A DNA stretch of 64,000 nucleotides. It comes from Chiloscyllium plagiosum (Eukaryota). The stretch spans positions 6,336,044 through 6,400,043 of the forward strand of contig NC_057752.1 of NCBI RefSeq assembly GCF_004010195.1, given 5' to 3'. The translations under genes were made by a program, and so were the position numbers. Below the pieces are notes generated by a model. The model searched no databases, was not told the origin of the DNA, and saw only the letters and a list, made by a program, of their open reading frames with translations. Below are positions 400 to 60,714 of the stretch, one piece after another; positions within the stretch are counted from its first letter, which is position 1; every line of letters begins with the position of its first letter.

Positions 400-597
400 T
401 CTCCACCCTATACCCACCACCACCCCGAACGATAGCATAAGTGCAGTCCTGCCACACTTCACGTCAGCTCTGATGAAGAGTTATCTAGACTCAAAACATT
501 AGCTTGCTGTCTCCCCATGGATGCTGCCTGACCCGCTGTGCTCTCCAGCATTTGTTATTTTCGGTACAGATTCCAGCATCTGCAGTAATTTGTTCCA
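400..597 (+). mobile_element. Penelope-like terminal repeat fragment (family C) with decayed hammerhead core
   Basis: CTGATGA-AGAGTTATCTAGACTC-AAAACATT at 470-500, then gatgctgcctgacccgctg...ccagcatctgcag, a tail shared with other Penelope-like copies in the window. Confidence 0.7.
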
Positions 598-1432
598 ACA
601 AGACATGAAGGCTGTTTAACATCCAGAATGCACTGGTTTATAGCTTTCAGTTGCTGTTGTTTGGAATACACTAAATATTTAGAGAAGAGAATCTCCCCTC
701 ATAAATTATATATCAGTCATCTGAACAGATTCTCAGAGAAAAGGAGCCTGGGAAAAGTAATGAGACGTTTAAGCGTGTGGGGGGAGGATGTGTTCAAAGA
801 TGAATCATGACAGAAATGAAAAGATTAAAAAGGCGAAGGCTATATCATCATGTTACAATTCAGTTGGTCCTTTCTTGTTTTTTTTACTTTAAGTTCAAGT
901 TGGGGGCATTTTGCAAACAGGTATTTTTGTCCAGAGATTCTTTTAGAAATTGAACACACAGCATTATGTCATGAGTTATTGAGAGCGAATCCAGGGTTTT
1001 TGGATCCACTTGTCAATTTCAGTGAAACTGAAGCAGAACAGACTGGTCAGCCAAGATCTCTCCCCCAAGCACTCTGCCCTTTCTGAGAACATACTGACTG
1101 GTGTTTAATAGGATACATTCAGATAGTTAATCACAAACTTATTCTTGGCAATCAATTCCATTATTTTGCCAGTTTTTGACGCAAGACCAAAGATTGGACT
1201 TGTTCTGTTGTCTTTTTGTTTTAGAAATAGGCCTGTTTCCAATCCAGTGCCACGTCTTAACTCTTTCCTCACAACAGAGACAGGGCCTAGGTTTGCCATT
1301 GTTTTAATAAGACCCTGGTGATTTTTTTCTCGAGGACCATTGGTGTTGGACTGAGAGCAGGCAGCCTCTTAATCGCTTGACTGTAGCTAGTGGGTCCCAG
1401 CACCCCCTCCTTGAACATCCACTAGCTACAGG

Positions 1433-1649
1433 GACGAAAGTGAGTACTGCAGATGCTGGAGATTTGAGTCAAGAGTGTGGTGCTGGAAAAGCACAGCAGG
1501 TCAGGCAGCATCCAAGGAGCAGGAAAATCGACATTTTGGGCAAAAGCCCTTCATCAGGAATGCTCCTCGGATACTGCCTGACCTGCTGTGCTTTTCCAGC
1601 ACCACACTCTTGGCTCTAATCTCCAGTATCTGCTGTACTCACTTTCGCC
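1433..1649. mobile_element. Penelope-like fold-back element (family A), two inverted arms
   Basis: gaaagtgagtactgcagatgctggag...gcacagcaggtcaggcagcatcc is reverse-complementary to ggatactgcctgacctgctgtgc...ctccagtatctgctgtactcactttc; decayed hammerhead core on - strand at 1529-1558. Confidence 0.8.
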
Positions 1650-1817
1650 CCTATAGCTAGTGGATGTTCAAGGAGGGGATGCTGGGACATTGTCAACAGA
1701 CACAATCTTAAAGTAACGGAAGCATTGAAGAAACCACATTAACATTTTTAAAACCTTCTCTCTAAGGATATGAGCACTATCAGCAAGGCCAGCATTTATT
1801 GCCCATCCCAATTGCCA

Positions 1818-2550: not shown

Positions 2551-2749
2551 AGCAACCCCTTTGAGGGGTTAAGCAGTGAGAAAACAAGCAATTTGGAATG
2601 TCTTAGTGGGGTGACTGCATTACAGAAAAAAACATCAACCTAGTCAAAACCAGGCAGTGTTGGGGAGATGGCAATGAGCAGCAAAATCTAAGGAGAAAGT
2701 GAAAATATTAGCCAGACTTCCAACCACTGACCATCATACAAACTGATAA

Positions 2750-6535: not shown

Positions 6536-6615
6536 GGAATACACTCCTTATATTGTGAGTGTACAAGCAGTATAGTAGGGACTGGGTACGCTGCTATTGC
6601 GGATTATCAATATAT

Positions 6616-6729
6616 AAAGTTAAAAATCACACAACACCAGGTTAGAGTCTAACCTGTTGGACTATAGCTTGGTGTTGTGTGATTTTTAACTTTGTACACC
6701 CCAGTCCAACACCAGCTCCTCCACATCAT
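6616..6729. mobile_element. Penelope-like fold-back element (family B), short hairpin without ribozyme core
   Basis: aaagttaaaaatcacacaacaccagg ... ttggtgttgtgtgatttttaacttt inverted arms. Confidence 0.8.
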
Positions 6730-7724
6730 CATGTTGATTTATCAGGGATGAGAAACTATAGCTCTCAGTAAAGGTGAGAAATACTTGGACTATTTCCACT
6801 GAAACTAAGTTGGCCAAGTTTTTATTTGCTTTAATTAAATTGTTTTTGAAGTAAGTGTTTCGCTAGAACTCCTTCTGCTGGTTGGGAAGCCAATAATGAG
6901 GGGTATAAAAGAGGGTGAGGAGAAAGGTTAAGAGAATTTTCTTTACCCGGAACAAAGAAATCTTTGCTACTGGCAAAGATCATCACAGCTTTGAAGGATA
7001 AATGCTTAAAGCAGAGGATATGAGACCATGGGGAGAAAGCAGGCTTGTGGAATTGGCTTGGGACTGCTTTCGCAAAAAGCCAGACAGAGACACACTGGGC
7101 TGAATGGCCTCCATCTGTGAACCTGTATTGTTCCACTTTACACAGAAAGCAAAATAGGCACCACCCCGGGGTTGAGACCAACCGAGAAACAGCAGGACTG
7201 GACAAAACAATGTTCCCAATCTTCCTTCGCCCTCAGGATTAAAAGTCAAACTCACACACCTCTCCAGAGCAATGTTCACACAAGTTTCTTTAGACCTCAC
7301 AACTTCGAAAGAGTTCTGGAACAATGCCGGCAGAGAGTTGGGAGTGGCTTGTCTGCCCACACTTTCAGTATGGGAATAATGTGTAACATCGGAGAAGGAG
7401 AAATGAATAGATAAAACAACCAAAAGCTTTTTGATATTGGAATCCCTTTTGCTACAAATAATCATAAGACATCCACAATTAACTAAATAATAAATTCCCT
7501 ATTCCCTGAGGTGATCTTATTCATCTCGTGACATTCTTCCTCATCTCCCACTCCTTTAATATGTCACAAATTGGGAGTTTATTAACCAGCCCATGAGAAG
7601 ATTAGTGGATGCAGTGAATGGGAACATTAGGCTCCCAGATCAGGAGAATCTGTCTGAGTCTGTCTAAGCTGTATTACAGAAACTACTTAAGCCTGCATCC
7701 ATTGTGTTGCACCTGCCACAGGAA

Positions 7725-13420: not shown

Positions 13421-13709
13421 AGATATTTGGGAGTGTATTTACCTAATGAGCTAAAGGGGGCTTCATATATCATATCATACATTTGTAGAGATACATTCTG
13501 TTTGGATAGTCCTTACACAGAATTCTAAATATCTTTGGAATCTTTTTTGTTACATTACTGCTTTTTAGGAGCACACTTATTTTATGTGTGAAGAGTAATT
13601 TGAGAGACTCATACATAGAATATTCATTTCCGTGGCCTGTATGCATTCTTGTCTGATGCTCTGTATGTTGGTTTTGATCAGTGGGTAGCTTCATTGTCTT
13701 CGAATTGAA

Positions 13710-13828
13710 GGGCTTATGTCCGAAACGTCGATTCTCCTGTTCCCTGGAATGCTGCCTGACCTGTTGCGCTGTTCCAGCAACACATTTTCAGCTCTGATCT
13801 CCAGCATCTGCAGACCTCACTTTCTCCA
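13710..13828 (+). mobile_element. Penelope-like family A copy, 5'-truncated inside the hammerhead core, 11-bp TSD
   Basis: gggcttatgtcc-GAAACGTC-gattctcc...; flanked by ttcgaattgaa at 13699-13709 and 13829-13839. Confidence 0.85.
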
Positions 13829-13839
13829 TTCGAATTGAA

Positions 13840-14228: not shown

Positions 14229-14544
14229 CCATGAAGTACAAATCTTTAAAAGTACTGGTTTGAAGATCTCGTATTCTGTAACATTATATGCAGTTATTTG
14301 CTTGATCGTACAGAACTTGAGTATTGTTGAAAAAGATACTTTTTGTCTTGCACTCATCAGGACAATTTGCAAGAGTATCAATTCAAGGGGAAAATCAAAA
14401 TTAATATTGCCTCAAGAGGAGAGTGCTGATTGGTTGGTAGAGGTCATTTGCAGTATAAATGTTCGCTTTCCCCTTGAATCAATATCGTAGGGGTCAGTTG
14501 GCTGGACAGCTGGTTTGCAAAGCAGAGTGATGCCAACAGCCTGG

Positions 14545-14792
14545 CAATTAAACCTGTTGGACTATAACCTGGTGTTGTGTGATTTTTAACTTTGTACACC
14601 CCAGTCCAACACCGGCATCTCCAAATCATGGCTACTATTGACACCACTAACCGCCGGCTTAAAGTGGAGAGGATCTCCAAGAAGATTGCAAGACTATCGT
14701 CTGATGAAGGAACGTCGCTCTGAAAGCTAGTGTGCTTCCAATTAAACCTGTTGGACTATAACCTGGTGTTGTGTGATTTTTAACTTTGTACA
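14545..14792 (+). mobile_element. Penelope-like family B, partial-tandem pseudo-LTR with start of the element ORF
   Basis: Direct repeat caattaaacctgttggactataacctggtgttgtgtgatttttaactttgtaca occurs twice; ATG at 14628 reads MATIDTTNRRLKVERISKKIA. Confidence 0.8.
14701..14732 (+). ncRNA. Minimal hammerhead ribozyme motif (weakened stem II)
   Basis: CTGATGA-A-GGAACGTCGCTCT-GAAAGCTA-GTG. Confidence 0.6.
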
Positions 14793-16397
14793 TCTCTCTC
14801 TAATACGAGAGCTGCCCTATGGCCCTCTGAGACTCTGGTGGTTTTATCTTTATTCTTGCATATCGTCCTGATGAATGCAAGACAAAGAACTTCAACAAAA
14901 TGTATCTTTTTCCAACAGTCATAAAGCATGAGTACCATATTAAAAAATAGAAGGAACCTACAACATAACAATATCAATGTGCAAAGTAGTATTGAGAGTT
15001 AAAAACACATATGAAATATGATCATTGTTTCTATATGATTCTTGCTTTCCATCAAAGCTTCAGAATAGAATTACAAATCCTACATAAGCCAGGCAATTCC
15101 TGTGGATCTGACTAAATGTCATTTTAAGCAATTGTGGGCCTTTCAAGTGGTATTCTTCTTGACGTATTACATGTCAAAATCTTCAGCGATACAAGTCTAG
15201 GGTGTCCTTGGAGAGTTGTGGAGTGGGTTGAAACATTATTTCAACAGTTCCCTGTCAGCCTTTCAATTTAGTACAAAACTGTGCATTTATAAGGTCATTT
15301 GAGGCTGCTTCACACAGCAGCTGGAGGCTATGTGCAGAAATGGGGTTGTAACGTTTTAAAACGATTATTCCCATGCAACTTTCATCCAAGGGTATAACTT
15401 CAACTTAGTCAAACAATTTTTCATTTGTAAAAGTGTCCCTGCATGGTCTAAGTGCCAAGAAGAATTATTGTGAAATTATCCTTCAGTGTTACAACTCTAC
15501 ATCTTCAATTATTTCACAATCCTTCAAGGGCTTGTTAGCTCATAGTTCCTGCATGTAAATTAATGGGTGGGTAACATGACTGATGGCTTGGTGGCTAATG
15601 GGTGGTGTTGAGCTAAACCATGTCAAACAGGAGTATTAAGGTTAGATCCTCAGTCTGTGCTAAGCTAGTCCATAGCCCTTAGCAGTTAGCCCTGAGGTCG
15701 CCAAGGTGTTAACCAGCTCAGGTGCCCTCTCTTATTCAGAGATCATGGTCGAATAACCTGTGTTGGAAAGTGTGGATATGGGGGTAAGGTTTGATCCAGT
15801 TGATGACCATTCCTTCCTCCATACTCGCATATGGAAGATACTCTTATTTTTATAGACAGTGGATTATAGCTATTTATTTATTTTCAGATATAAATTGTCC
15901 ATTGACTTACAGAGCAACTAGAAAGAATAAAATGGTCTTGCTACTCATCCCCAGAATTTGTGAGGTTCTGGATGGTATATAACAATTTAAGGATTTGTCA
16001 GCAAGGAGAGGTTTTATTTTTGTTAGCAAGGTGTGTTGAATAATGGGTCAGTGATCTCCTGAAGTGAGGGTAGACTATATCACAAACCAATAAACCAACA
16101 GAACAGCTAGGAAACCTTTTAGGGATGGGTACGCATAGCTAGAGCCCCATAAGGATCTTAAGCCTTCCTTCACAGTTCATGCAGAAAGGCAAGAATAAGA
16201 GAAATTACACAGCCCGTATGCAGAGGGGAAACAAGTACTTTTGGTGAACTTCTCTGTAGTGACACTGAATGTGACACAATTCGGTCAAACTCAGGAAAAG
16301 TTATTTGCAGCCAAGTTGGTGTCACCTTAAACGTGACCTGATAACAATCTCTCTTGCGCAAAGGTGATGCGCACGAGGCAACTCAGAGCTCTGCCAA

Positions 16398-16505
16398 AGC
16401 AAAATGCTGCAGATGCTGGGAACGTGAGACAAAAACAGAAAATGTTGCAACGAGAGAGAAAAATAAGATGAACATTTCAAGTCGATGCCTTTGTTCTGAA
16501 CTGGG
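16398..16505 (-). mobile_element. Old Penelope-like family C fragment
   Basis: gcaaaatgctgcagatgctgggaac..gacaaaaacagaaaatg resembles the reverse complement of 550-597. Confidence 0.5.
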
Positions 16506-21844: not shown

Positions 21845-21875
21845 GGTTTAAGAACTACAACAAGTAAGATCACAT

Positions 21876-23758: not shown

Positions 23759-25164
23759 TAAGAAAAAGGAGCTGGAGTGGACCACTCAGTCCTTCCAGTC
23801 TCTGACTAATGTTTAGCTTCAATTTCACTTTCCCACCTACTCCCCGTATTCCGTGATTCTGAAGGACCAAAAATCTCAAATCTATCTCAGCCTTAAATAT
23901 ACTTGGTGATGGAATACCCACAATTCCTCTGGGGTACAACATTCCAAAGATTCACAACCCTCTAATGAAGCAATTTCTCCTTTTCCCAGTCCAAAATGGC
24001 CACCCCCTTATCCTATGACTGTGCCCCTCCCCCTGTGTTCTAGATTCCCCAGCTAAGGGGAAACACCCTCTCACTATCAAACCTGTCAAAACCTTTCAGA
24101 GACTTGTCTGGTTCAATTAACTCATATCTCATTCTTCTAAACTCTAGCTTCATTCAGAAACAAACCATTAATTGTTCTCTGTGTTTCAGGCAGGATCGAC
24201 CTGCTGTAGGAAAATTGGCCAGAAAGAATTTTTAGATTTGGACCCTTTTCAGTAGCTAGCATTTGAGAAATTGTTCCTACATGACACCAGTGACTGGATT
24301 TCGAATGGACTTCATTGGCCATACAATGCTTTGGTATATTGGGAGGTAGTGAAAATCACCATAAATATGCAAGGCTTTTTCTAATGTATTATCCCAGTTC
24401 TTGTGAGGAACCAAATTGGTTTAAGCTCATTTTTACATCCTCCTCTTTGGCTCATGTTGCCAAGAGCTCAGGAGAATGCACCACAGTGATCAGCCAATGA
24501 TGGAATGGGCACCCACTCTCCACACGCTATTTTGAGTTGTTCATAGAAAGATCTGATGTGAGGTTTTCCTCTGCGTCCAGAAAGAACTCATTCTATGGGC
24601 TGCCCCTTTAATTTTTCAAAATCTTGAGACTCCAACTCTGCAGCAACCTAATTTCCTGCTTTTGAAGGGAAACCACTGGCTGCAGTAACCTCTTCAGTGA
24701 GTGCATTGTCGGAAGTCTCCATCTGTGAAAGGAAGTCCTAAGGGTACAATACAGACCAGTTCCACCCTTTTCCTCATTACGTGCTCGGTTTAAGTTCTTA
24801 TCAGAAGTCAGTTTTGCTTGGAAGTTATTTTTTGTGTAATTTCACTTTATTGTCCTCCCATTCCAGATCGAAGCATTACCTGGGCCGATCATAGAATTCA
24901 TGCACATCAAATTGCCTTTCCATTCTCTATCAGCTACTGCACGATATCTGAAAACCCTTTCTGTAATGTAAATGGATTACAATCCACAATACTTTGAGAA
25001 GCTGGGGAAAAAAATGAAGAGGTCCTTGAAATAACTGCACAGAGGCCAGTATCCCATCACCAAGTCCCCCTTTATTTACAAGTGGAGAATCCTTGACACT
25101 GATCCAGCTTCCTCAGAGTAAGCTCTCAGAGTGAACAGAACCTCTGACACTTCTGTTTATATCT

Positions 25165-25356
25165 TGATTTGGAGGTGCCAGTGTTGGATTGGGGTGGACA
25201 AAGTTAAAAATTACACAACACTAGGTTATAGTCCAACAGGTTGATTTGGAAGCACTAGCTTTCGAAGCACTGCTCCTTCATCAGGTCACTGTTCATCAGC
25301 TAGTGCTTCCAATTAAACCTGTTGGACTATAACCTGGTGTTGTGCAATTTTTAACC
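25165..25356. mobile_element. Penelope-like family B fold-back element, 12-bp TSD
   Basis: Inverted arms gttaaaaatt..acaacac..ggttatagtccaacagg / cctgttggactataacctggtgttgt..atttttaac; TSD ctgtttatatct at 25153-25164 and 26978-26989. Confidence 0.85.
25253..25286 (-). ncRNA. Minimal hammerhead ribozyme motif, catalytic core intact
   Basis: Minus strand AC-CTGATGA-A-GGAGC-AGT-GCTTC-GAAAGCTA-GTG: stem II 5 bp (one G-U), palindromic AGCT stem III. Confidence 0.7.
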
Positions 25357-25364
25357 CTGTTTAT

Positions 25365-29812: not shown

Positions 29813-31974
29813 CAGAGCTGGGCGCACTACCCATGATGGGCAGTATTTGGTGGCAAGTTTATTTTGAAACAAAACAGCTGGGATCTTTCCCCCACTGACA
29901 TGATTTTGATTTAGTCCCCTTCCTTTGTCTTGCCATGGTTTGTTTCAATTTTTCTCATACTGCCCTTGGTGGATAGTGTTTGGAACTAACAGTTGATTGG
30001 TTAATTTGGTGGTGGGTTTATGTACTAAACAAAAAACAGCTGGGATCTTCCTCAGTTGGGAGTGGGCTTCTGGACAGAGATAGGGTCCAGAAGGGAAAGG
30101 TGGAAACTGATGTTTGTGTTAAACTACAGATTTGCAATCAACCCCTTGTAAATCTCTGGAAGTCTTTCGCTGTCCAATTCAACATATGGATGTCGGTCTG
30201 CGAAACAGACAAAAGGAAGGGTGAGGGATTTGAAGACAAGAATGAGAATTTTAAAAATGAAACGTAGCCCAAAAAAAATTACTTCCCATCACTGTTTGAC
30301 TCTTCAGAATTCTCACATCCTCCCAGTATTGAACGGACTATCACTTGGCCATACTATCAGTGTTACAGAGTGCTCACTCATTGGACTTCATATGAGAAAC
30401 AGTCAAAAGGTGCTGTTATATTTGGAGACTCTACTTCGGATTTCAGGAAGCCAACATCCACCCTCTATAGCTTGACAGTGTAGTAAACAGATCCCTTTGG
30501 CCCCTGGTAGATTCACAGTGCAATATATTTGTCTGGCATTAAAATAAGAGAGCCATACTGCATTGTGACATTGGCTGGTGTATAATAATGGAGGTCACTG
30601 GCTCAGAGCGATGGCAGAGAGACGAACAGATAGTGCACAATTCTGCCAGTCGCCGAACTGAACTGCGGTTTTTATTTAAGGAAAGAAAATCAAGCATAGC
30701 GTCTTCTCTGCAGAAGCTGCATCAGGAACATTGTGTCGTTTCAGAAAAGGGCCAGGGAAGAGTTTGGATGCCACCTTTTGGAAACTAAGAAAAGTTAAAC
30801 AGGGAATCCAGTCTGAACAGTGATGGCTCAAGCCTTTGACTCTTTACTGGACCAATAAGATTTCAAACTTTACATTGGCAGTTTTGAAACACTTACCGCA
30901 CTTTATTTCAGTTAAGCTCAACATTTTTAGATTTAGATTTTATTGTCATGTGTATAAGTGAAAAGTGTATAATGTTGCCACAAACAGCCCCATCTTCGGT
31001 ACAAAAACTCAGTTACAGAAATAAGGAAATAAGTTTAAAAGTTCATCACTACAGCCTTCTTCGCGTAAAAGTAGAACAAAAAAGAAATAATGTTAAAATG
31101 TCAAACATTACAGGCCTTTCTTCAGTCCTGGGCCTGCTGATGCTCCTTTGTTACAATGGAAACCCTCTCCATTTTGATTCATACCTCATAATCCAGAAAG
31201 AGTTTGAACTAAAAACATGACAAAATGTAGCAAGACCACAAAAAAAAATAAGATTGGGGGTTGGTGAGGCCTGCTGTCCTGACAAGCAAGGCTCACTTCC
31301 TCACAGTTTATCTCTGCAAGGACCTAACCTGTAAATCTATGTACTGAAGTCAGAATAAAGCACTGAAGATGGGATAAAACTGGAGAGCACATAAATCAAG
31401 TCAACTACTGCATTAAACCAGTTCTAAATAAAAATAAAGCAGATAAAAGGAGGTGGGGGAGGAGGACCTTAAATATATCTTGCCCAGAGAGGAAAAAGCT
31501 TGGAAAATAGTCACAGAAATGATTTATGGAAACCCAGAGCTCTCAGCTTCCAGGAAGTTCCAGCTCTGTAGAAATTAATCAAAGTTCAACTTTTAAATCT
31601 CCCCACTTCTTGCCAAACCCTGCTATATTTCATAAGATGTGTCACTCTCAGTGTATATAAAACCTATTTTAAAAACCCAATGGACAAGGCAAAGTATTTG
31701 GAGGGGAAGGACTTTCTGATTAAATTTGCATTCAATTCAAATTATGGAATATTCTGTTTTCCAGCTGAGGAATGATTACGAGGAATAAATCTGCTGGTGG
31801 CTGGGGGGGCAGTTTTGTGGATGCTTAAGGAAGGGACATTTTTGAGTATCAGAAGACTCCTCAAGTACCTTCTCCTATGAACTGAGGAATGGATGCCCTG
31901 TCTCAGGGCCAGCAAGTTTTCGCTTCAAAGTTTGGGTTGAGTTCATCATCATCCCAAACTGGAAAGCATGAGGT

Positions 31975-32130
31975 TGACAGTGTGGTGCTGGAAAAGCACA
32001 GCAGGTCAGGGAGCATCCGAGGAGCAGGAGAATCGACGTTGCGGGCATAAGCCCTTCATCAGGAATGAGGCTGGCAGCCTCCAGGGTGGAGAGATAAATG
32101 GGTGGGGGGTGGGCTGGGGGGGGAAGGAGA
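31975..32130 (-). mobile_element. Penelope-like family A copy with hammerhead core (GAAA>GCAA)
   Basis: Minus strand attc-CTGATGA-A-GGGC-TTAT-GCCC-GCAACGTC-gatt at 32031-32066. Confidence 0.8.
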
Positions 32131-44349: not shown

Positions 44350-44505
44350 AACAACAAAAAACAAAGAACTCCCGAATGCTGGAAATCAGAAACAAAAACA
44401 GAAATTGCTGGAGAAGCTCAGCGGGTCTGCCAGCATCTATGGAGTGAAATCAGAGTTAACGTGTCGAGTCTAATCGTTAACTCTGCAATTTCTGTTTTTG
44501 TTACT
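44350..44505. mobile_element. Penelope-like family C fold-back fragment
   Basis: aacaaaaacagaaattgc..cagagttaacg / cgttaactctgcaatttctgtttttgtt inverted arms. Confidence 0.7.
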
Positions 44506-46544
44506 GTTATAACCTATTTGTTCTGCTACTATACTGACCAGGACATAAAAAAAAACACTGTTCCTCTGAGGAAAAAAATGTGCTATGGAATCTTTTATAT
44601 CCAACTAAGCCAACAGACAGGGCCTCAACTGAGATATGTCATTGACAACACTGCAGCACCTCTGAGTCCTATACTGAAGCGTCACCCTTGATTATGCACT
44701 TAATCCCTGGATATTTTATCTACTTAAAATGTCAACAAAAAACGAAAACTCACTCTGATGGCAAATATCAGTGAAAGCAAAACTATTAACTTCGAAATTA
44801 TGTTCTATATAATCTATTGTGATCCTGCTGCCTATAAAGACCTTGCAGGGTTAAAGTAACTTAGTCAACAGACAGCCATCAGTTCAGCTGACAGCTGTTT
44901 GACCTGTGGAGTGCTACATCCTGCTTCTAGTGAACTGGGAAACAGCTAAACTTGGAACATGAAGTGTTCTTCCTCAGACAAACAGTCCGAAAAACATTAC
45001 TCAGATGTGAAATAGTGTTCCTCCCTATTATATAAATGAAAATGTAAATTGTCAGAAGATGGTTCATCCTGTCTATTGCTTTGAGATAGCGAGCAAGAGC
45101 TCCGGCAGTTTTGAGCTCTTGTGATGCATTAAATCCTTGAAATCATTTAAATTTTAATTTTGCCTCTGTCCAAAGTCAATTTCACACAGACGTTTAGATC
45201 TGCTTTTATTTCAGCAAACCAGCGCACATAATTTTAGCCAACAATTAAAGCTGAGGGACATTCCTTTATAGAAACATTTTTATGAACACCCAAAGCTTAG
45301 TTAAATATTGATTTTATTGAACACTTATGGTGCATATGTGACTCATTAGAAAGGAGAGTGGTGTAGCCCTTTGACAGGATGTAGGGTCACACATGTTTAG
45401 ACCTATATTACCCTGAACTCCACTCTTCTGAACACTGGAGCTGGTTTTCTGGAGGTTTTTTATAAAGAAAACTAGTCTGGCTCCCACACCGAAGAGTTGG
45501 AAACATGCTGTGATGAAAAAAAGGCTTATTTGGAAGTGTTTTATTTTACAACAGGGCAGCTTAAAGGGACATTGTCGTTCTTGAACAAGAATACTTGCTG
45601 AACCATTTCTTTTCTTTTGCTACACTCCCATCAAAGAATTGATGGAAGACTTGGATGCTGACATGGTTAGGGTTATCACAGCGTGCTTGTAAGCAAGCAA
45701 GTTATTGTGATCTGAAACGTGCTACCTGAAGAGCCGGTGGAAAACAAAGTAATCGTAACTTTTTCAAAAGGAATTGGATAACCTAGGCTATGGGAACAGG
45801 GCATAAGAGTGAGATTAATTAGACAACTTGACCAAACAGACAGGATGGCCACAATGGGCTAAATAGCCTCATTTCTGTGGTTTCATGACATCAAAAATAG
45901 TTTGCTAACCATTTGTTTGAAATTCTTATTTTTGTGTGAATTTTCTCTGACAAGGAATGTTAGAGCTGGAATTCTTTCCGCTGTTGTTGCCAGCATCAAG
46001 CACTCCCACAGAGGCTCGATGTAGAAATGAAATGTCAAGCTACCCTGCGCTCCAAGACAAACCGTCACTCCCAAGCTCAGCCGAATGTCACCTATTGTAC
46101 GACGTCTCCATTTCCCACAGGGGTTGTCCTGTGGTCTTTGTGAGTAACTGCTGTGCACAAAACTGGCTGAAATCAAAGCCAGATGCCAGCGTGGCTTGTG
46201 TGTGTGTGTGTGTGTGTGGGGTGAACCAGCTGGGGCCCCTGCCCTTTCCTGATTCCCATTCTGTATAAGTGCAGATTGGAGTGATGGCTCTACATGCTTA
46301 CAAACAATCATTAGACTCACATATGAATGGTATCTGACTGACTAATTCCTAAAGAAGCTATTAGCATGGATCTCAGAAACTTGAGCCTACATAGAATATA
46401 AAACTATAGGGACCAAGCTCACAAATCCACAGAACTGGCTGCCCAAAACATTATCAGTCACAATTAAAATAAAGCGAAACTAATTGCAAGGATTTCAGCC
46501 AGACAGACTGTAGGTCCCAGGTACTGAAGTTATTTCTTATGCTT

Positions 46545-48402: not shown

Positions 48403-48904
48403 AGGACAGATTGATGAGCCTGCATCAACATTGGACGTTTCATAGCTCATCAAATCTGCTTCTCTCTCCGCAGATGCTGCCTGACCTGTTCAGCATTTTC
48501 TCTTTGATGTCAGATGTGCAGCACTTTGCTTGTGGCTGGTAATTTACAGGCAATTACCCATCGACAGGGGAAGAGCGCGAGCAGCCGGCCTGTGTTTGAC
48601 CCCGGGTGAGAGAGGTCCTAGCAGTGATCCGTGGTGGCCACAGGGAGCAGGCGGGAGGCCTGACATGCACATGCACACACACGGCTCTCATTGAATGGCA
48701 TTGAAACCTGAGCCTGCTCTGTAATCGGCAAGGAGACCTGTCAATAACAAGGGGGAAAGCCACTGATGTTTAAACCAGGGGACAAGGGGCAACATCTCCA
48801 GCCGTGGGGACGCAGTTAAAGGAGGTGCTGTCCACGGGGTCAATCTGTGGCGGGCCTAGCATATTCCAGCCTGGGACTGTGCAGAGGGCAGCAGCGCTGA
48901 TGTT

Positions 48905-52269: not shown

Positions 52270-53075
52270 TGGATGTAGGTTTGCTCGCTGAGCTGGAAGG
52301 TTTATTTCCAGATGTTTTGTCACCCTACTAGGTAACATATTCAGTGGGCCTCAGGTGAAGCACTGCTGATAATTCCTGCTTTCTATTTATATGTTTGGGT
52401 TTCTTTGGGTTGGTGATATCATTTCTGTGGTGATGTAACTTCCTGTTTTTTTCTGGGGGGGGGGGGAGGAGAAGAGAAGAAGAGAGTAGATGAGGTCTTA
52501 CTTGATATGTTTGTTGATAGAATTCCAGTTGGAATGCTATGCTTCTAGGAATTCTTGTGAGTGTCTCCATTTGGCTTGTCCTAGGATGTGTGCTGTCCCA
52601 GTCCAAGTGGTGTCCTTCCTCATTCATATGTAAGGAAACTAGTGAGAGGGGGTCATGTCTTTTTGTGGATAGTTGGTGCTCATGTATCCTGGTGGCCAAT
52701 TTTCTGCCTGTTTGTCTGATGTAGTGTTTGTTACAGTCCTTTCACAGTATTTTGTAAATGACATTAGTTTCACTTGTTGTCTGTGTAGGGTCTTTAAGTT
52801 CATTAGCTGCTGTCTTCGTGTGTTGGTTGGTTTGTGGGCTACCATAATGCCAAGGGGCCTGAGTAGTCTGGCAGTCATTTCAGAGATGTCTTTGATGTAG
52901 GGGAGAGTGGCTAGGGTTTCTGGATGTGTTTTGTCTGCTTGCTTGGGTTTGTTGCTGAGAAATCGGTGGACTGTACTCATTAGGTACCCATTCTTTTTTT
53001 AAAAAAATATGCTGTATAGGCGATTTTCCTCTGCTCTGCGTAGTTCCTCTGTGCTGCAAGTGTGTATTGGCTTGT
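52270..53075 (-). mobile_element. Penelope-like retroelement (family D), 3' part with GIY-YIG endonuclease remnant
   Basis: Minus strand NGYL..VHRFL, TLPYIKDISEMTARLLRPLGI.VAHKP, NVIYKIL*KDCNKHYIRQTGRKLATRIHEH. Confidence 0.9.
52308..52347 (-). ncRNA. Decayed hammerhead ribozyme at 3' end of Penelope family D
   Basis: CCA-CTGAATA-T-GTTACC-TAGTAG-GGTGAC-AAAACATC-TGG: stems I and II pair, core has three substitutions. Confidence 0.55.
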
Positions 53076-53182
53076 GAAATGGATACCTGATTTTTGGTTG
53101 CTGTTTTGACAACTCGAATTTAACCAGTTTAAATTATGCCCTAGAATATTAAACCTAATAGGAGGTTGAATTTATTATTTTT

Positions 53183-53361
53183 GAAAGCGTGGTGCTGGAA
53201 AAGCACAGCACGTCAGGCATCATCCAAGGAGCAACAGAATTGATGTTTCGTGCATAAGCCCTTCCTCAGGAATTCCAAAACGTCTCCTGCTCCTCGGATG
53301 CTTTTCCAGCACCATGCTTTCGACTCTGATCTCCAGCATCTGCAGTCTTCACTTTCTACCC
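53183..53361. mobile_element. Penelope-like family A fold-back element inserted in the Gypsy LTR
   Basis: Inverted arms; minus-strand CTGAGGA-A-GGGCTTATGCAC-GAAACATC at 53242-53270; imperfect 16-bp TSD tgaatttattattttt / tgaatttgttgttttt. Confidence 0.8.
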
Positions 53362-53924
53362 TGAATTTGTTGTTTTTCCAACATCAAACTAATGAGATGA
53401 TCGGATGTTGGGGGCTATAAGAGTGCGGGACATTTTCAAAATTGGTCAGAGAGCAAGTGCCGTAGAGAGAGAACGTCCTGGAGAGCTAATTGCCCAAACA
53501 TCTTGCTCTCAAAGAAATTAGAAAATACTCTGTCTCTCACACACACACAATGGTACCTTTTCACAGTAAAAAGAAAGACAAACGACCCAGAGAGCTCAGC
53601 AGATGGAACAGTGAAGGCATAGACTGTGTGGTTTTGAAATTAAGGTGATGTAATTTTCAATAAGTGTCTTATTGGCACAGCATATTGTTATAGAGTCAGA
53701 GGCAGATAGTAAGCAGTTAAGAGAAAGGGGGGGCTTAGATTTGTGAATAGTTTTTGTTTAATGTTCCTTTTTAGAGTAAAAAAATAAATTGATGTTACTT
53801 TCTTTAAATAGTTGAATTTAGGAGTTCTCTGTCACTCATGTTTTAAAAGATTATGAGGCAAGGCAAGCTTTTCTAAAATTTAGTTTAATTAACAGAGGGG
53901 GCTCACCTCTGTGTTGTAATGGCT

Positions 53925-53942: not shown

Positions 53943-56154
53943 TTGGACATATTGGGACAGGTTTAGACAGATCCAGTCTGAGATTTGAACCGATTTGGGG
54001 TACAAACAGTCCCAGCAGATTAAACATTTGGCAATTTGTGTTCTAGATTTTTAAATAAAACTTAAATGTTCTCACCTGTTTAATTTTGGTTACTTGTGGT
54101 AGGTTAAATTAAAAGAGTGAGGGAAATGGCTCTTTAGCAATATTAAGTGGTTCTGGGATTTGAAGATGCTTCCCAAATTTGCCAAGAAAGCTTAGAAAGA
54201 CAGAGGAAGGAAATACTTTTAGAATAAGCAAATAGGTTAAAATTGGGTTTAACCAGGGATAAAAGGAAAGCTGAAATTGTAATGGAGTTGGTCAAGGGTG
54301 GATTAGAGAAACAGACAAATGCAGTAGAGTTAGAAAAACGTAATTTGCAATTGAGGCAAATGGAGTTACAAGATAAGGAAAGGGAAAGAAGAGCCATGTT
54401 AGAGGATAAAGAGAGGGACAGAAGGTTCTTAGCTGAGCAAAAAGAGAGAGAGAAGAAAGAAAGGGAGAGAGAATTTGAACTTCAGAAGTTGCAAATTAGT
54501 CAACAAAGTCAAGTTAACAGGATGGAGATGAAGGAAGAAGGTAGTGATGTATACAAATATGTTTAAACACTGCCACATTTTATTGAGAAAGATGTCAAAG
54601 CCACTTTTATTTCATTTGAAAAATTGGCTCGGTAGATGGAGTGGCCAGAAAACTTGGGTAATGCTAGTTCAGACTAAGCTGGTAGGCAGAGCTAGTGAGG
54701 TATTTGCAACATTGTCAGATGAGGGGTCAAGAGATGATGCTGAGGTCAAAAAGGCAATTTTGAGTGCCTATGAATTGACACCAGAAGCATATAGACAGTG
54801 GTTCAGAAACACAAAGAAGGAATGTGGTCAGACTTATGTTGAGTTCGAAATAATTAAACAGTAATTTTGATAGATGGGTGCGGTCCTTAAAAATAGATAA
54901 CACATGATTCTCAGAGATTATTCTGCTGGAGGAGTTTTAAAAACTTACTTCCAGAGACAAGAATTCATGTGGATGAACAGAAAGTTCAAGAGTGACAGAG
55001 GTGGCAGATGAATATGCATTGGTGCATAAAGTGAAATTCAGCTTCTATGGAAATTGGGAGAAGGGGAGATCCTTCACTACAAACAAAGACGAGAGCACAC
55101 TGGTGATAGTTTACTACAGGTGAAAAAAGCAGCCCAGAAGTGAAAGGCCTCAGGTGTTTCTGTCATGGTAAGGTGGGACACGTGAAGTCATAGTGCTGGT
55201 TGTTAAAGAAAGGTACTGTGGGAAAGGGTGTGGTAAAAGAAGCTATGCCAGTGAGATTGTGAAAGTAGTAAAGGAAACCCCAGGAAAGTGCACAGCCAAG
55301 ACAGGAGCTGGGTATTAAGTAATTGCCCAATCTCTATAAAGACGTCACCCTTGTGGGTAAGGTTTACTCAGGAAGAATAGGGGGAAGATGGGAAAGAAGT
55401 TATAAATTTTGAGAGATACAGGAGCTAATCAGTCTCTAATAGCAAGTGATGAACATATTTGCACTCTGACATGTTACCAGAGAGAGTGGTAATTTGTGGA
55501 ATAGATGGACAGAAATTTAGCACTCGTCTATGTAAGATCAGGTTGGACTGGGGAAGTAACAGTGGAAGTGATTGACGGAGTGTCAATTCCAGGAATACAG
55601 TTTGTTCTTGGGAATGACCTGGCAAGATTCAAGGTGGGATCGACACCCCTTGTGGTGGAGAAGCCAAAACCAGGGAACCAAGTTAAAAGACAAATTCCTT
55701 GGAATCTTTCCAGGCTGTGTAGTAACAAGAGTCCACTGTCATTAGTTTTTACTTCTTGCTATGACTTGAGAAAGACAAAGGAGTTGAGGCTCAGAATTGG
55801 CACCATGGTGTGGAAGCCTTTCTCTAACACATGCTCCTTTTATGAGTGGCTCGCCAATTTGAGCACACCATTGCTGCACGTCCCCTCAAATATCACTTTT
55901 AACATCACTATGGCAGAGGGAAACTCGACACAAACAACATGCATTCCTAAAGGACCTTTAACATTGCAAAACATCCCGGGAGGATTAGGAAACAAGTTTT
56001 CACACTGGACTACATCAGGAGATATCAAAATAGGTGACAAAATAACTTGATCAAAGGAGGTAGGTTTTAAGGAGCATCATAGAGAAGAAAGGCAGCAATG
56101 TTTTGAGAAGCAATTCTCAAGCCTAAGGTCTACTTCAGATCACTGCAGCTGAAA

Positions 56155-56285
56155 TTCCTGATCAAGGGCTTAAGCTCAAAATGCCGATTCTCCTGCTCCT
56201 CAGATGCTGCCTGACCTGCTGTGCTTTTCCAGCATCACACTTTTCGACCCTGACTCTCCAGCATCTGCAGTCCTCACTTTCTCCT
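56155..56285 (+). mobile_element. Penelope-like family A copy with decayed hammerhead core, inserted in an L2 remnant
   Basis: ttc-CTGATCA-AGGGCTTAAGCTC-AAAATGCC-gattctcctgctcc...cactttctcc. Confidence 0.8.
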
Positions 56286-56855: not shown

Positions 56856-59800
56856 GCAGGCTTTTTAAAAATGTGAAAGTATACATGAACAAAGGCCATC
56901 AATGCCAATAATCCCTCTCAAATTTAAATTAAATTTTCTTGAATCTTTGTAGGGGAGCAAGCTTTTCTTTTTGCATCGTGTCACAAAATCTTAAAACAAC
57001 TGAACTTAGAGCTTCACAACACTTGATGCAGTAACAAAATGTTGCTCCCCCACCCCACCCCAGTCCCATTCATCCTCCTTCAGTTCCTGCTTTCCATTTT
57101 AGCAGTAAAGTGGCAGTTTGTGTGGGAACTGCTACAGTCAAGAGGTAAAAACCATTCTCCCAATGTAGCTAAATCAATAGTCACTGCCAGCAATCAGATA
57201 TTGGAGGAGATTGCTGAAATTTACAAATATCGATTGTCAGGAAACCAGACTTGCCTTTTGTACAAAAAGCAGTTTATTATTTGGGATAACTTGACAAATA
57301 GTTAGCGTTCTGCAAAACCGCTACTCTAAATAGACTAAATATTTATCTGATGCTGAGATTAATTTGCTCCTGTATAAACACCCACAGTGAGGAGAATCTA
57401 TATTGACCACATTGCAGGCAGACAAGGTTGAAACTTGGCAACTCATGGCAGCTTAGTGAGAGCCAGGATGTGAGACAGCTGCCACAGTAAGAGGCACAAC
57501 AACACTGCCATTGTGGAAAGGTTAGAAGTCAATGGAAGTGGAAGGCAGCACCTGCTTCAAGACAGGATGAGGAAAAGGGGAACACCCGGTCTCAGGCTTC
57601 CGACACTCATCATCCGATTGTTCATCTCCAGAGATGTCGGAGCACACTGCTTGCCCATGCTTTGTAGGATACCACATGACCTGGAAAGAATGAGAACACC
57701 TAAAAAAGACAGGAATACTTATTCCAATTTTAGATATTAATCCCATATAACAGATGAAAAGAGTTAACAAAGATCAAATCCCTCAGCAACTTCCTAAAGG
57801 AAAACTTACCAATTCACATTACCAAAACTATCTGCCTCACCAATTTTGTCTCTGCCTGAAGCTGTTGGCTCATATTTAATACTGTTCGTTAACAGTTATA
57901 ACTTTCTCCCTCCACCACCATTCTCCAATTTTCTCCTTTCTTTTCCATTCTTCCAGGAATATTTTGCTCACTGTAATAAATTTTATAAAGCCATTGCACA
58001 GGATTAACAGGACAATCCAGTAGGTTTAAGCTTCACTAAACGTCTTGAGGACCCTTACAGAATACTTAATTACTAGGTGCTGTTTTGAGAAGAAAGCAGA
58101 GTTGGTAATCTAAAAGATGAGAATCAATGGACTGAAGGGCTTTCTTTGTACAAATCTAGCTTGTCATGGTCTCAAGCTGTCAGTGGGAGTAATATTACTC
58201 ACTCTGCTACATTTACATTTTTCAATCACGTCATCTATACCCCAAACCAGGACATCTAAATTCCAACCCAAAGATCAGAGGCTTTATTCCCAGATTTAAA
58301 GACCGTGATCGCGACCACATTCCCAAGAAAAATACAGACTTATCAACTCACAGGATGACGCACAGGATCAGTTAATGTTGTATAAGATGCATCAAGTAAA
58401 ATCACACAGCATCCTACTGAGAACAGGATACTTTTTTTTTTCCTGGAACGTAGCCACAGTTCTGTGTATTGTGATCATATCAAGTGCTGAATGTTCCCGC
58501 TCTGGTTCTTTTTTCTAAGCTCCAAATAAGTCATACCTCCAGTTCGTACAGCTGGTCATTCTTTGGATTGCAGATTCTTGCAGTGCAAAGATTCTGGTGC
58601 AAGGTTAGTGAACCTTCAGTCATTCAAGGGAATGCTCACTTGTCACAATCCTGCTTTTTAAAAATTCTTTCCTTTGGGTCTGAAGAGGAGTTTTAGTTCA
58701 CATTCATATTATTAGAGCCATATCATGTGTGGTGGCTACAAGACTTATTATACAGCATCCAATTCAAACTAATTATTTCTCAGTGCTACCAGAATGGACA
58801 AACAAGTTACAGATAGAATAAATACAGAGATGATGCAGTCTGACAGAGAGGTAAAGAAAGGCCGTATATACTTAATGGCTCTGCTCAAAAGTGTACAGGG
58901 ACAGAGGGAGTTCAAGGTTCATGTGCATCAATCTATGACGGTGTCAGGACATAGTGAGAGAGTAGCTAGCACAATGTATGGTACCTCGGGTGCTGAAGTG
59001 ACCTTACCAAGCCACTCAGTTGTAGACAATTCACTAACTGTTCAAGGACAATTAGAGATTTGTAATAAATGCTGGCCTTACCAGTGACATACACATCCTC
59101 AGAACAAAAAAAATCTTGAAGTCTCCAATTAGCCTGTTCCAAATCCTTACCTCCAAAGAAAATATTTCTTAATCTGTTGCAATTTTCAAAAAAAAAAACT
59201 TGTATTCTTAGCACCTGGAGGATATTGAAATAAATACTCACTCACACTAACGTCTACTGTTAAGTTGGAATGCTTTAGACTAATTTAACAGGGAAATTCT
59301 GTTTGGAAAGATCATTTTGTCAAAGCCCCACACAATACGCATGAACACGGCATTTTTTAATGCCATTTCAAAACAAAATTGGATCTCACAGTTTAGCAGA
59401 AATTTTTTTTACGAGTCATTTCCTGTACTCCAACTATAGAAAGGATTAAACGGAACAGTCCTGTTCTATGTTGTAGTCTACTCAGGGGTCAAGCTCAAAT
59501 TGTTTTGAGAGAGTCATTTTTCAATCACAATTCGAGACTGCAGTCACCAGCAATCACCATGAAATTCAATCCCCAACTGACTGCAGAAGATATTTATAAC
59601 TACTTTCTCCATTGCTCTCCCCTAGAACTTCAGTGATGAATTGTAGGCCCAGTGGAGCAATGTCGAGGACTGATTAATACCTCCCCTTGCTTGAAATGCC
59701 CAAAGGTATCCATTGTTAACGCTAACCCATCCAAACCTGTCACATGGGCAACATGGGGACCCTTTGTAAATACTGCCATACTCCCCAGGAGTCTGTAAAT

Positions 59801-60321
59801 ACTTACACACTCCTCTGAAGCCCTCCTTTTTTTCTCCTTCTTGGGCAAGGATGCCTTTCTCCTCCCCCATCCCCCGTGTGGAGTTGAGAATATGGAGGTG
59901 ACTGAATGGTCGAGTACTGGATCCACACACCCTGCGCAGTGGGGTTTGCAATGCTTTGATGGGTGGGATGATTTGATTTTCTCACCGATGTTTAGCCGCC
60001 TCCTGGGGCCTGTTGGAGATGCTCAACAGTTGGTACCTTCTTCGCCACTTTGGGCAGGCTTAGATAACAGTTTCCCACAGGTTGGTGGCAATTTTCTTTT
60101 TCAGGGAGGCTTTCAGGATGCCCTTGAAGCATTTCTTCTAGCCTCTCGATAATTGCTACCATGAAGCAGCTCAGAATGGAGAGCTTGCTTTGGAAGCTGT
60201 GTGTCAGGCATGCAGACGATGTGGCCCATTCAATGCTGATGACTGACTATAGCCAGTGATTTGTTGCTGGGGATGTTGACCAGACAGCAGACACCGACTT
60301 GGAACACCTATCCTGTCACTA

Positions 60322-60518
60322 TTTGGAGATGCCAGTGTTGGACTGGGGTGTACAAAGTTAAAAATCACACAACACCAGGTTATAGTCCAACAGGTTTATT
60401 TGGAAGCACTAGTTTTCAGAGCGCTAACAACCATCTGATGAAGGAGTAGTGTTCCGAAAGCTAGTGCTTCCAAATAAACCTGTTGGACTATAACCTGGTG
60501 TTGAGATTTTTAACTTTG
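60322..60518. mobile_element. Penelope-like family B fold-back element, perfect 13-bp TSD
   Basis: TSD tatcctgtcacta at 60309-60321 and 60519-60531; inverted arms around a central hammerhead. Confidence 0.88.
60432..60466 (+). ncRNA. Minimal type I hammerhead ribozyme motif, core intact
   Basis: CAT-CTGATGA-A-GGAGT-AGT-GTTCC-GAAAGCTA-GTG: stem I CAT/GTG, stem II 5 bp with G-U pairs, palindromic AGCT; predicted cleavage after A60463. Confidence 0.7.
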
Positions 60519-60714
60519 TATCCTGTCACTAGTTTTGCAGAGGCAACACTGGTGATAATTCAACAGATTGGAGGTATCGCCTTTATTCTCTCTCTCTCCC
60601 ACACACACACACACATACACGTTTGCAACACTTGCATTTCAGAAAATGAGTTGGTGTTGGGACTTGTTCAAACATTCTATTCCTCAGACAGTCAAGGGCT
60701 GCACTGGCACCCAC

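What the first reader, a model, noticed from the sequence alone, without database searches (positions are those of the whole stretch)
400..60531. About five distinct families of short hammerhead-ribozyme-bearing Penelope-like elements in 64 kb
Seen: CUGANGA-(extra nt)-stem II-GAAA-like cores at 470 (+), 1529 (-), 13710 (+, truncated), 14354 (-), 14701 (+), 14868 (+), 25253 (-), 32031 (-), 52308 (-), 53242 (-), 56158 (+) and 60435 (+). Stem II differs completely between families (GGGC/GCCC, GGAGC/GCTCC, GAGT/ACTC, GTTACC/GGTGAC, GT/AC), yet the core is kept. Where undecayed, stem III is a 4-nt palindrome (ACGT or AGCT). Known: Penelope-like elements carry minimal type I hammerheads with palindromic stem III thought to cleave as dimers, so the association itself is not new. 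Inference: most copies here are 110-250 bp, non-coding and have their own TSDs, so they may be a SINE- or retrozyme-like non-autonomous layer reaching very high copy number in sharks.
Basis: partly seen in the sequence, partly recalled or inferred. Interest (0 to 1): 0.75.

Follow-up and report, generated by a model that had tools for sequence, protein, structure and literature searches.

The report
Hammerhead-tipped Penelope end stubs in shark
This stretch of shark-like DNA holds about fifteen short, mostly mutated end-pieces of Penelope-like jumping genes, most carrying a small hammerhead ribozyme motif; they are likely by-products of full-length elements rather than a separate mobile family, and the pattern is mostly already described.

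Summary
All 12 cited cores are present, in five stem-II types, but most are decayed: 4 of 12 keep every core base and 2 of 12 pass a full descriptor. Majority letters from same-species reads restore families A and B.

Their 3' ends fall at two fixed sites about 33 nt apart (the known Penelope 'tail'). Family B's tail runs straight into the ATG of a Neptune-type reverse transcriptase; family E sits behind a GIY-YIG fragment. There are no tandem arrays or shared junctions, so a SINE or retrozyme layer is not supported.

These are most likely short cDNAs begun at the tail and copied to the front of full-length element RNA: 6 of 8 A/B copies start 2-10 nt before the core.

Not found in my literature searches: family-B RNA is polyadenylated about 30 nt behind its hammerhead, and in related elements TATA boxes and poly(A) hexamers flank the ribozyme. 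This suggests an LTR-like R region.

The scan has reported these stubs before on other pieces of this genome. Cleavage was not tested.

The parts
464..595 (+). Family C PLE end; hammerhead C3 at 470 (G12 and the stem III palindrome decayed); TATA-like word 34 nt upstream; true 5' end not determined
1432..1650 (-). Family A head-to-head palindrome: sense arm with core (C3 1557) plus inverted arm, both ending at the distal site; TSD 1381-1393/1651-1663; extra 38-nt inverted copy of flank at 1394-1431
6613..6731 (+). Family B palindrome without core; one arm ends at the proximal site, the other at the distal tail site (missed by reader)
13706..13827 (+). Family A stub starting inside the core, ending at the distal site; 11-bp TSD
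14285..14445 (-). Family D left arm (C3 14360; 12-nt deletion over stem III), extends past a TATA-like word
14450..14922 (+). Family D right arm (14450-14484 plus 14850-14922, C3 14868), split by later insertions; head-to-head partner of the left arm
14545..14690 (+). Family B pLTR 3' part, tail, and first 21 codons of a Neptune-type PLE ORF (ATG 14628-14630)
14693..14793 (+). Family B stub with hammerhead (C3 14701), A(A/T)TAAA at 14741-14746, poly(A) addition site at about 14758-14761, GU-rich stretch behind, proximal 3' end
16398..16500 (-). Old, decayed C/F-type PLE end (missed by reader)
25163..25358 (-). Family B palindrome, intact core (C3 25284); sense arm distal, inverted arm proximal; 8-bp TSD
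31974..32100 (-). Family A copy (C3 32062, A13 mutated) that continues upstream of the core; proximal 3' end; upstream limit not determined
44352..44506 (-). Type F (C-related) end, truncated inside stem II, with short inverted pieces (missed by reader)
48422..48527 (+). Old, decayed C/F-type PLE end (missed by reader)
52271..53092 (-). Family E: 5'-truncated Penelope/Poseidon-type PLE; broken RT-thumb and GIY-YIG coding piece (53091-52430), TATA box 47 nt before C3, decayed hammerhead (C3 52344)
53181..53362 (-). Family A palindrome (C3 53269); sense arm proximal, inverted arm distal with an internal deletion; 16-bp TSD with 2 mismatches
56154..56284 (+). Family A stub (C3 56158, three core changes), starts 4 nt before C3, distal 3' end
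60322..60520 (+). Family B palindrome, intact core (C3 60435), sense arm starts 8 nt before C3 and ends proximal, inverted arm distal; 13-bp TSD

Best explanation
The short elements are end-pieces of several endonuclease-bearing Penelope-like retrotransposon families, likely laid down directly by the full-length elements' own enzyme as short cDNAs that begin at the 'tail' and probably run off the front of the element's RNA just ahead of the hammerhead. Shown: collinearity with autonomous elements (B with an ORF start, E with the endonuclease), two fixed 3' ends per family, TSDs, head-to-head arms with copy-specific centres, and neutral-looking decay. From the literature: a PLE enzyme cuts and extends both target strands and starts reverse transcription at two adjacent internal sites that define the tail (PMC11167929). 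Inferred: each nicked strand primes its own cDNA (one at each tail site), and the two cDNAs join head to head to give the palindromes. The RNA starts 4-10 nt before C3 under a TATA/initiator promoter, so an uncleaved RNA gives 100-130-nt stubs with an entire hammerhead. Longer copies need a template jump or a tandem or circular template. The minimal hammerhead cannot close helix III alone (a 2-nt loop) and would cut only as a dimer or with protein help, so solitary genomic stubs are predicted to be inactive passengers.
For: Family B: the distal 3' end coincides with an ATG whose frame matches PLE protein N-termini (18 of 21 residues identical to P0154; P0233 and P0161 also match). Relatives of P0154 carry RT, a Cys linker and GIY-YIG. 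In same-species DNA contigs, summed depth falls from 1.88 million at 14618 to 4,058 at 14639, so few copies continue into the ORF. Family E matches Stegostoma and Chiloscyllium RT/GIY-YIG proteins at 74-84%. 3' ends: of 8 B arms, 4 are proximal, 3 distal and 1 runs into the ORF; all 3 B palindromes have one arm of each kind. Of 7 A arms, 5 are distal and 2 proximal. Reads and contigs end sharply at 13827 and 14628-14630 with unrelated flanks (agreement 0.34-0.43). 5' ends: 6 of 8 core-bearing A/B copies start 2-10 nt before C3; three A copies start at or next to the same A of an initiator-like TCATTCC. TATA-like words lie 34-47 nt before C3 in the four long window copies, and TATAWA lies 30-50 nt before C3 in 7 of 23 related-element hammerheads against 0.74 expected. 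No pile of read starts or ends at the cut site (table 6), and no window arm starts at the cut site (0 of 15 A/B arms). The structure matches the published 'inverted pLTR plus tail' pattern.
Against: No whole genome was available, so the 5'-end counts rest on 8 copies plus loose-end summaries. No transcription start was measured, and 3' single-cell reads cannot show one. Five of 13 core-bearing arms extend well upstream and two start inside the core. Families A, C, D and F were not tied to an ORF. TATAWA also occurs 60-80 nt upstream in 4 of 23 relatives. D. virilis Penelope has a TATA-less internal promoter and an intron ahead of its hammerhead, so a splice junction or RT stalling could also give the 5' boundary. 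Arkhipova 2013 explains head-to-head palindromes by self-priming on antisense RNA instead. The A1557 palindrome has both arms distal and an extra inverted flank copy that the model does not explain.
Confidence: 0.72

Rival explanations
1. The stubs are true non-autonomous families (SINE- or retrozyme-like): short master copies are transcribed as 100-130-nt units and re-inserted in trans by PLE enzymes.
For: Fixed 3' ends and clustered 5' ends; stubs outnumber ORF-containing copies by a few hundred fold in contig depth; putative non-autonomous PLEs are reported in Chlamys; retrozymes derive from pLTRs and occur in one chondrichthyan genome.
Against: Stubs that start at -4 to -8 lack the upstream TATA region and carry no tRNA-like head. 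There are no tandem arrays. All palindrome centres differ. The one ORF-to-hammerhead junction (14690/14693) is bridged by none of the longest contig pieces shown (16 shown of more than 213,000). Core bases decay at CpGs.
Confidence: 0.15
2. The stubs come from full-length element RNA, but the 5' boundary reflects reverse transcriptase stalling at the hammerhead fold, or a splice junction, not the RNA start; the palindromes arise by snap-back or self-priming rather than by two primed cDNAs.
For: Inverted arms also stop within or just behind the hammerhead (25284, 53269, 60435). An intron ends at helix I in D. virilis Penelope. Self-priming was proposed for rotifer PLEs. The inverted flank copy at 1394-1431 looks like copy-back synthesis.
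Against: Boundaries lie 5' of the fold, after RT has read through it, and three A copies share the initiator-like A. In 4 of 5 A/B palindromes the two arms end at different tail sites, which a simple snap-back copy would not give.
Confidence: 0.12
3. The motifs are chance matches or are unrelated to ribozymes.
For: Rfam gives no hammerhead hit; 8 of 12 copies have damaged cores; relaxed two-mismatch scans are at chance level.
Against: Read majorities restore stems and cores for A and B. The same architecture occurs 27 times in 98 related PLE loci against 0-1 in 5 simulations, with 27 of 29 hits on the ORF strand and several pair types per stem position.
Confidence: 0.01

Closest known systems
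Minimal type I hammerheads (min-HHR) in pLTRs of metazoan PLEs (Cervera and de la Pena 2014, PMC4209133)
   Same: Core, extra nucleotide before stem II, G10.1-C11.1 pair, short helix I, palindromic 15.2-16.2, many sequence families per genome, mostly single motifs ascribed to truncated PLEs, and pairs on opposite strands.
   Different: Sharks are not mentioned in the parts read; density here is about one PLE end per 4.3 kb; flanking TATA and poly(A) signals were not described there.
Complex insertions of EN+ PLEs: inverted 5'-truncated pLTR plus a 30-40 bp tail (Arkhipova 2013, PMC3846280; Craig 2021, PMC8557442)
   Same: Head-to-head arms, tail on one arm only, TSDs of about 8-16 bp, partial tandems, pLTR and tail abutting the ORF start, TATA and initiator in the pLTR.
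   Different: Here the insertions are reduced to 120-250 bp with no ORF body; in family B the distal end falls on the ATG itself rather than inside the ORF.
Poseidon of Anolis carolinensis in vitro (Frangieh 2024, PMC11167929)
   Same: Two adjacent RT start sites define the tail, both target strands are cut and extended, uncleaved RNA is the template, and no reads begin at the ribozyme site.
   Different: That is a Poseidon element with start sites 111-118 nt into the ORF; family B is Neptune-type. Run-off stubs and palindromes were not discussed in the parts read.
Non-LTR retrozymes of animals (Cervera 2020, PMC7229834; Li et al. 2026 preprint 10.64898/2026.07.22.740005)
   Same: Non-coding, type I hammerhead, pLTR-related.
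   Different: Retrozymes are tandem repeats of 150-450 bp units that give circular RNAs; here there are no arrays, the copies are head-to-head or solo, and the hammerheads are minimal.
Minus-strand strong-stop DNA and R region of LTR retroelements (recalled, no call)
   Same: Works-like comparison only: priming near the RNA 5' end, run-off at the start, and a short region between transcription start and poly(A) site.
   Different: Target-primed, no tRNA primer and no integrase; the R-like region is inferred, not mapped.

Membership tests
EN+ Penelope-like elements | ORF with telomerase-like RT and GIY-YIG endonuclease | tested here: met
   Family E piece is 74-84% identical to shark proteins with RVT_1 and a weak GIY-YIG hit (E 0.0027, below cut-off). 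Family B ORF start matches proteins whose relatives have RT and GIY-YIG. Met for B and E only.
EN+ Penelope-like elements | ORF link for families A, C, D, F | not testable with these tools
   No genome held; pattern scans found no outside copies.
EN+ Penelope-like elements | Optional 30-40 bp tail at one end | tested here: met
   Two 3' end positions about 33 nt apart in A and B.
EN+ Penelope-like elements | Inverted 5'-truncated copy or partial tandem at the 5' end | tested here: met
   7 of 15 insertions are head-to-head (1557, 6655, D pair, 25284, 44470, 53269, 60435) and 1 is a partial tandem.
Neptune clade (family B) | Cys-rich linker between RT and EN | tested here: met
   CxxxxCxxC before the GIY-YIG motif in shark relatives P0155 and P0156; indirect, through P0154; no tree built.
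Minimal type I hammerhead | CUGANGA / GAAA / UH core with stems I and II | tested here: met
   Intact in 2 of 12 copies; read majorities restore A and B; a relative's protein is consistent with G8 and G12 for E; D unproven.
Minimal type I hammerhead | Palindromic stem III and stem covariation | tested here: met
   Palindrome intact in 5 of 12. Across 27 related hammerheads there are 4 pair types at stem II pair 2; stem I pair 3, not required by the descriptor, pairs in 26 of 27. Within-family covariation could not be tested on so few copies.
Minimal type I hammerhead | Self-cleavage (as dimer or protein-assisted) | not testable with these tools
   Bench test; reads show no start or end pile at the site.
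Non-LTR retrozyme | Head-to-tail tandem units, each with a hammerhead | tested here: not met
   TRF finds no such array in the window; genome-wide not tested.
Non-LTR retrozyme | Unit-length linear or circular RNA | not testable with these tools
   Only a poly(A) single-cell library was available.
SINE | Pol III (tRNA/5S/7SL-derived) head and A-rich or simple-repeat tail | tested here: not met
   No such head or tail in the alignments; ARAGORN 0 genes; no tRNA, 5S or 7SL hit in Rfam.
MITE / fixed palindromic element | Same internal structure in all copies, constant TSD length | tested here: not met
   Centres differ in all 5 A/B palindromes; TSDs are 8, 13, 13 and 16 bp.

The most novel reading that the evidence does not exclude
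The PLE hammerhead sits inside an LTR-like R region, between a TATA/initiator start just ahead of it and a poly(A) site just behind it. A full-length mRNA then carries one hammerhead at each end, and the two can pair as the required dimer. Uncut RNA yields strong-stop-like stubs and twin-primed palindromes, and cut or circularised RNA (or a strand transfer through R) yields full-length and tandem copies. The shark genome would be a very large fossil record of both routes, and the ribozyme would be the switch between them.
Probability: 0.3. Interest if true: 0.7.

Novelty: new member of a known kind. Interest (0 to 1): 0.36.

Why it matters
The hammerhead-PLE link, its family diversity and the inverted-plus-tail insertions are all in print, so the finding as written is ordinary. 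What the PLE hammerhead does is still open (PMC8557442 says so). The stub boundaries, the poly(A) site behind the family-B ribozyme and the TATA/poly(A) flanking in relatives give a concrete, cheap test (map RNA starts and ends) of where the ribozyme lies in the transcript. The stubs also take up about 5% of this window (hand sum of parts), form strong hairpins if transcribed, and may donate poly(A) sites to host genes.

Tried and rejected
Whole-genome analysis: no genome is held.

Rfam scan at E<=10: 16 matches, none a hammerhead; the microRNA-type hits at 25209-25348 and 1497-1584 reflect the palindromes.

Exact-pattern scans for family A or B motifs gave 0 in viral contigs, metagenome contigs and prokaryote genome contigs.

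Pfam on five window ORF pieces: 0 of 5. The two-mismatch descriptor is at chance level and was not used.

Tail folds are not significant (z -1.46 to +1.47 in 6 pieces). The idea that the tail pairs over the family-B poly(A) site (a 9-bp stem in the MFE fold) is therefore only a hint.

The look-up of sequencing runs: no RNA holder listed; low-share rows were not used. Run X22 laid 0 reads and is no test. Contig depths were used only as ratios along one element, not as copy numbers. The excess of A>G/T>C places in RNA was rejected as editing evidence, because all transitions are raised and there is no matched DNA.

TSD search failed for 10 of 15 intervals, several with uncertain boundaries. MITE, SINE and retrozyme membership were rejected as above.

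Lunse et al. 2017 (PMC5785218) is not held and is known to me only through the review PMC6765202. Supplements were not read; those of the 2026 preprint (chondrichthyan retrozyme families) are closed and could bear on the retrozyme question.
Full report
OBSERVATION. The window is shark-like DNA: its closest named proteins are from Stegostoma and Chiloscyllium at 74-84% identity. No whole genome is held. The five stem-II types are as written. Copies are mostly decayed: 4 of 12 keep every core base, 2 of 12 pass a full descriptor (0-1 per simulated window, 6 simulations), and G12 is A at a CpG in 6 of 12. The 9-mer CTGATGAAG occurs 6 times against 1.17 expected. Rfam has no hammerhead match, as expected for minimal motifs.

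FAMILY-LEVEL CORE. Same-species reads and contigs laid on 13600-14950 show that the window's damaged letters are private. The majority letter restores stem II of family A at 13719 (733 of 758 RNA reads) and, for family B, stem II at 14712 (800 of 874) and 14721 (650 of 1026) and stem I at 14699-14700. Loose-end majorities spell intact cores for both families (40 difference rows were shown, 75 hidden). For family E, a Stegostoma protein that reads through the motif has D and E where the window has Y and K, consistent with G8 and G12. Family D is only compatible: both copies lack G12 and one has a 12-nt deletion. In 98 related PLE loci from metagenome and genome contigs (80 of 463 and 18 of 19 confirmed stretches returned), the same architecture gave 29 hits in 27 loci, 27 on the ORF strand, 27 distinct, against 0-1 in 5 simulations. 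G10.1-C11.1 is present in 25 of 27, the extra nucleotide in 26 of 27, and other stem positions use several pair types. The first three pairs of stem II, the first two of stem I and the palindrome were required by my descriptor; stem I pair 3 (26 of 27 paired) was not.

I count 15 PLE-end insertions, about 5% of the window by hand sum. Seven are head-to-head: 1432-1650, 6613-6731, the D pair, 25163-25358, 44352-44506, 53181-53362 and 60322-60520. The five A/B palindromes fold as long hairpins (-53 to -172 kcal/mol) and all have different centres. The D pair was split first by another repeat and then by a family-B insertion. 3' ends are fixed at two sites about 33 nt apart. For B, 4 of 8 arms are proximal, 3 distal and 1 runs on into the ORF, and each of the 3 palindromes has one arm of each kind. 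For A, 5 of 7 arms are distal and 2 proximal. Reads confirm sharp ends at 13827 and 14628-14630 with unrelated flanks. Clear TSDs of 8-16 bp were found in 5 of 15 intervals tested. This is the published PLE pattern of an inverted 5'-truncated copy plus an optional 30-40 bp tail (PMC3846280, passages; PMC8557442, passages).

LINK TO AUTONOMOUS ELEMENTS. Family E is an 820-bp 5'-truncated element with broken RT-thumb and GIY-YIG coding sequence in front of its hammerhead. Its relatives show no Cys linker before the endonuclease, hence Penelope/Poseidon type. In family B the distal 3' end falls on an ATG (14628-14630) whose 21 codons match the N-terminus of P0154 (18 of 21), P0233 and P0161. P0154 leads to 350 longer proteins, the best from sharks, with RT, a Cys linker and GIY-YIG, hence Neptune type. 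So in family B the order is hammerhead, tail, start codon: the stub is the front of the autonomous RNA. Contig depth falls from 1.88 million at 14618 to 45,574 at 14631 and 4,058 at 14639 (X1), so very few copies go past the tail. Families A, C, D and F could not be tied to an ORF. A, C and F share a 3' module.

5' ENDS. Of 13 core-bearing arms, 6 start 2-10 nt before C3 (1557, 53269, 56158 at -4/-5; 60435 at -8; 14701 at about -8 to -10; 25284 at about -2), 2 start inside the core (13710, 44470), and 5 extend further (470, 32062, both D arms, E). The three A copies start at or next to the A of TCATTCC, which fits the initiator consensus (label recalled). The four long copies tested have TATA-like words 34-47 nt before C3, clear only in E. 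In related elements TATAWA lies 30-50 nt before C3 in 8 of 26 (controls 29 of 538). After dropping 3 near-relatives it is 7 of 23 against 0.74 in composition-matched shuffles (0 of 2000). The test windows were chosen, and TATAWA also appears 60-80 nt upstream in 4 of 23. The reading that the boundary is the start of the copied RNA was already in earlier scan notes; I reuse it and add these tests.

RNA. One poly(A) single-cell run (X21, about 2% read, 5,112 reads laid; X22 of the same sample laid none) shows a 6:1 sense excess over the family-B hammerhead (depth 1036 against 175), against about 1.6:1 over the core-less B piece. 318 and 475 reads go into an A-run directly behind 14758 and 14761. 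That is 12-15 nt behind A(A/T)TAAA (14741-14746), in front of a GU-rich stretch, at a site that is not A-rich in any of the 8 window B arms; this is the layout of a normal poly(A) site (established knowledge, recalled). About 300 sense reads reach 14699, and 397 carry loose upstream letters with agreement 0.71, like native sequence (0.67-0.76) and unlike flanks (0.34-0.43). A family-B-like hammerhead in L033 shares a 7-8-letter word at a similar upstream distance and has AATAAA 18 nt after its cut site. These RNAs therefore enter the hammerhead from upstream, seem to be uncut, and end shortly behind it; no place shows a pile of starts or ends (table 6). They may be 3' ends of full-length element RNA or of host transcripts; one sample cannot tell. 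In related elements A(A/T)TAAA lies within 30 nt after the cut in 8 of 27 (controls 18 of 423), or 7 of 24 against 1.07 after dropping relatives, and in none of the upstream bins. Most relatives lack it, and family A shows no such signal in its alignment.

MECHANISM. Shown in the literature for one Poseidon element: both target strands are cut and extended, reverse transcription starts at two adjacent internal sites that define the tail, and uncut RNA is the template (PMC11167929, parts 1-2 of 4 read). Inferred here: priming at the tail near the RNA front and run-off 4-10 nt before C3 gives the solo stubs; priming from both nicked strands, one at each tail site, gives the palindromes; a template jump gives the partial tandem at 14545-14793. 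Longer copies need a jump or a tandem or circular template. Helix III would need a 2-nt loop in a monomer, so cutting should need a dimer or protein (PMC4209133, parts 1-2 of 4; PMC6765202, passages). Solitary stubs are then inactive passengers, in line with their CpG decay. Confidence 0.72 for the whole; the PLE-end identity alone is above 0.9.

COMPARISON. Minimal hammerheads in PLE repeats, many families per genome, and mostly solitary motifs are described in PMC4209133. Retrozymes are tandem units giving circular RNA (PMC7229834, passages; preprint 10.64898/2026.07.22.740005, parts 1-3 of 5; supplements closed); the tandem feature is not met here. SINE and MITE features are not met. TATA and initiator words in a pLTR were noted in PMC3846280; D. 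virilis Penelope is TATA-less (PMC2377424, passages). I did not find a poly(A) site behind a PLE hammerhead, an R-region reading or a strong-stop reading in print. The searches were: 0 papers with Penelope, pLTR, polyadenylation, transcription start; 20 of 58 listings seen, none on PLE strong-stop; 25 of 38 listings. The library lacks subscription papers and Repbase notes, so this is weak evidence of absence. The scan's own notes hold many reports of these stubs and palindromes in this genome, and none holding all my poly(A) search words.

VERDICT. Real, and a new member of a known kind. The SINE/retrozyme reading is not supported; the by-product reading is. Interest 0.36, carried mainly by the testable placement of the ribozyme between a likely transcription start and a poly(A) site (novel case: probability 0.3, interest 0.7 if true).

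Noticed in passing
window 1381-1688: The family A palindrome carries a 38-nt inverted copy of its own flank (1394-1431 mirrors 1651-1688) between the element and the 13-bp TSD, so target DNA was copied back during insertion; not explained by simple twin priming.
   Followed up: partly
window 14741-14790: Family B carries a used poly(A) site; with the tail present a 9-bp stem can enclose the site (fold not significant). B stubs could act as portable poly(A) signals for host genes.
   Followed up: partly
window 14285-14922: Triple nesting: a family D head-to-head pair, split by another repeat (about 14491-14545 and 14794-14845), itself split by a family B partial tandem.
   Followed up: partly
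window 29568-29766: A separate inverted repeat with 67-nt arms at 76% and no hammerhead; looks like two SINE heads back to back (impression, not tested).
   Followed up: no
window 12870-13419: LINE-like piece (family also at 5685-6121) with internal inverted segments at 12918-13131 and 12870-12907/13345-13382.
   Followed up: no
window 25671-27031 (-): GC-rich open frames that read like a non-LTR retrotransposon RT C-terminal region; no Pfam hit for the one piece scanned; assembly gap at 25788-25872.
   Followed up: no
window 54228-56050 (+): Open frames that read like a decayed gag-like region of an LTR retroelement (impression); no Pfam hit for two pieces.
   Followed up: no
window, many places (for example 1817-2301, 37149-39619, 33809-34497): Two abundant LINE-like repeat groups of 9 and 10 pieces; not classified by any search.
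   Followed up: no
L033:50-84: A hammerhead nearly identical to family B (31 of 34 nt) in a JGI metagenome contig, opposite to a Neptune-type RT piece; the family-B motif is not confined to this genome.
   Followed up: partly
L081-L098: 18 Neptune-type PLE loci lie in prokaryote genome assemblies, mostly MAGs and symbionts of animals; likely host DNA carry-over.
   Followed up: no
L006, L012, L020, L025, L051, L084, L091: Related hammerheads with 6-nt stem III palindromes (ACGCGT, AAATTT, ACCGGT) instead of 4-nt ones.
   Followed up: no
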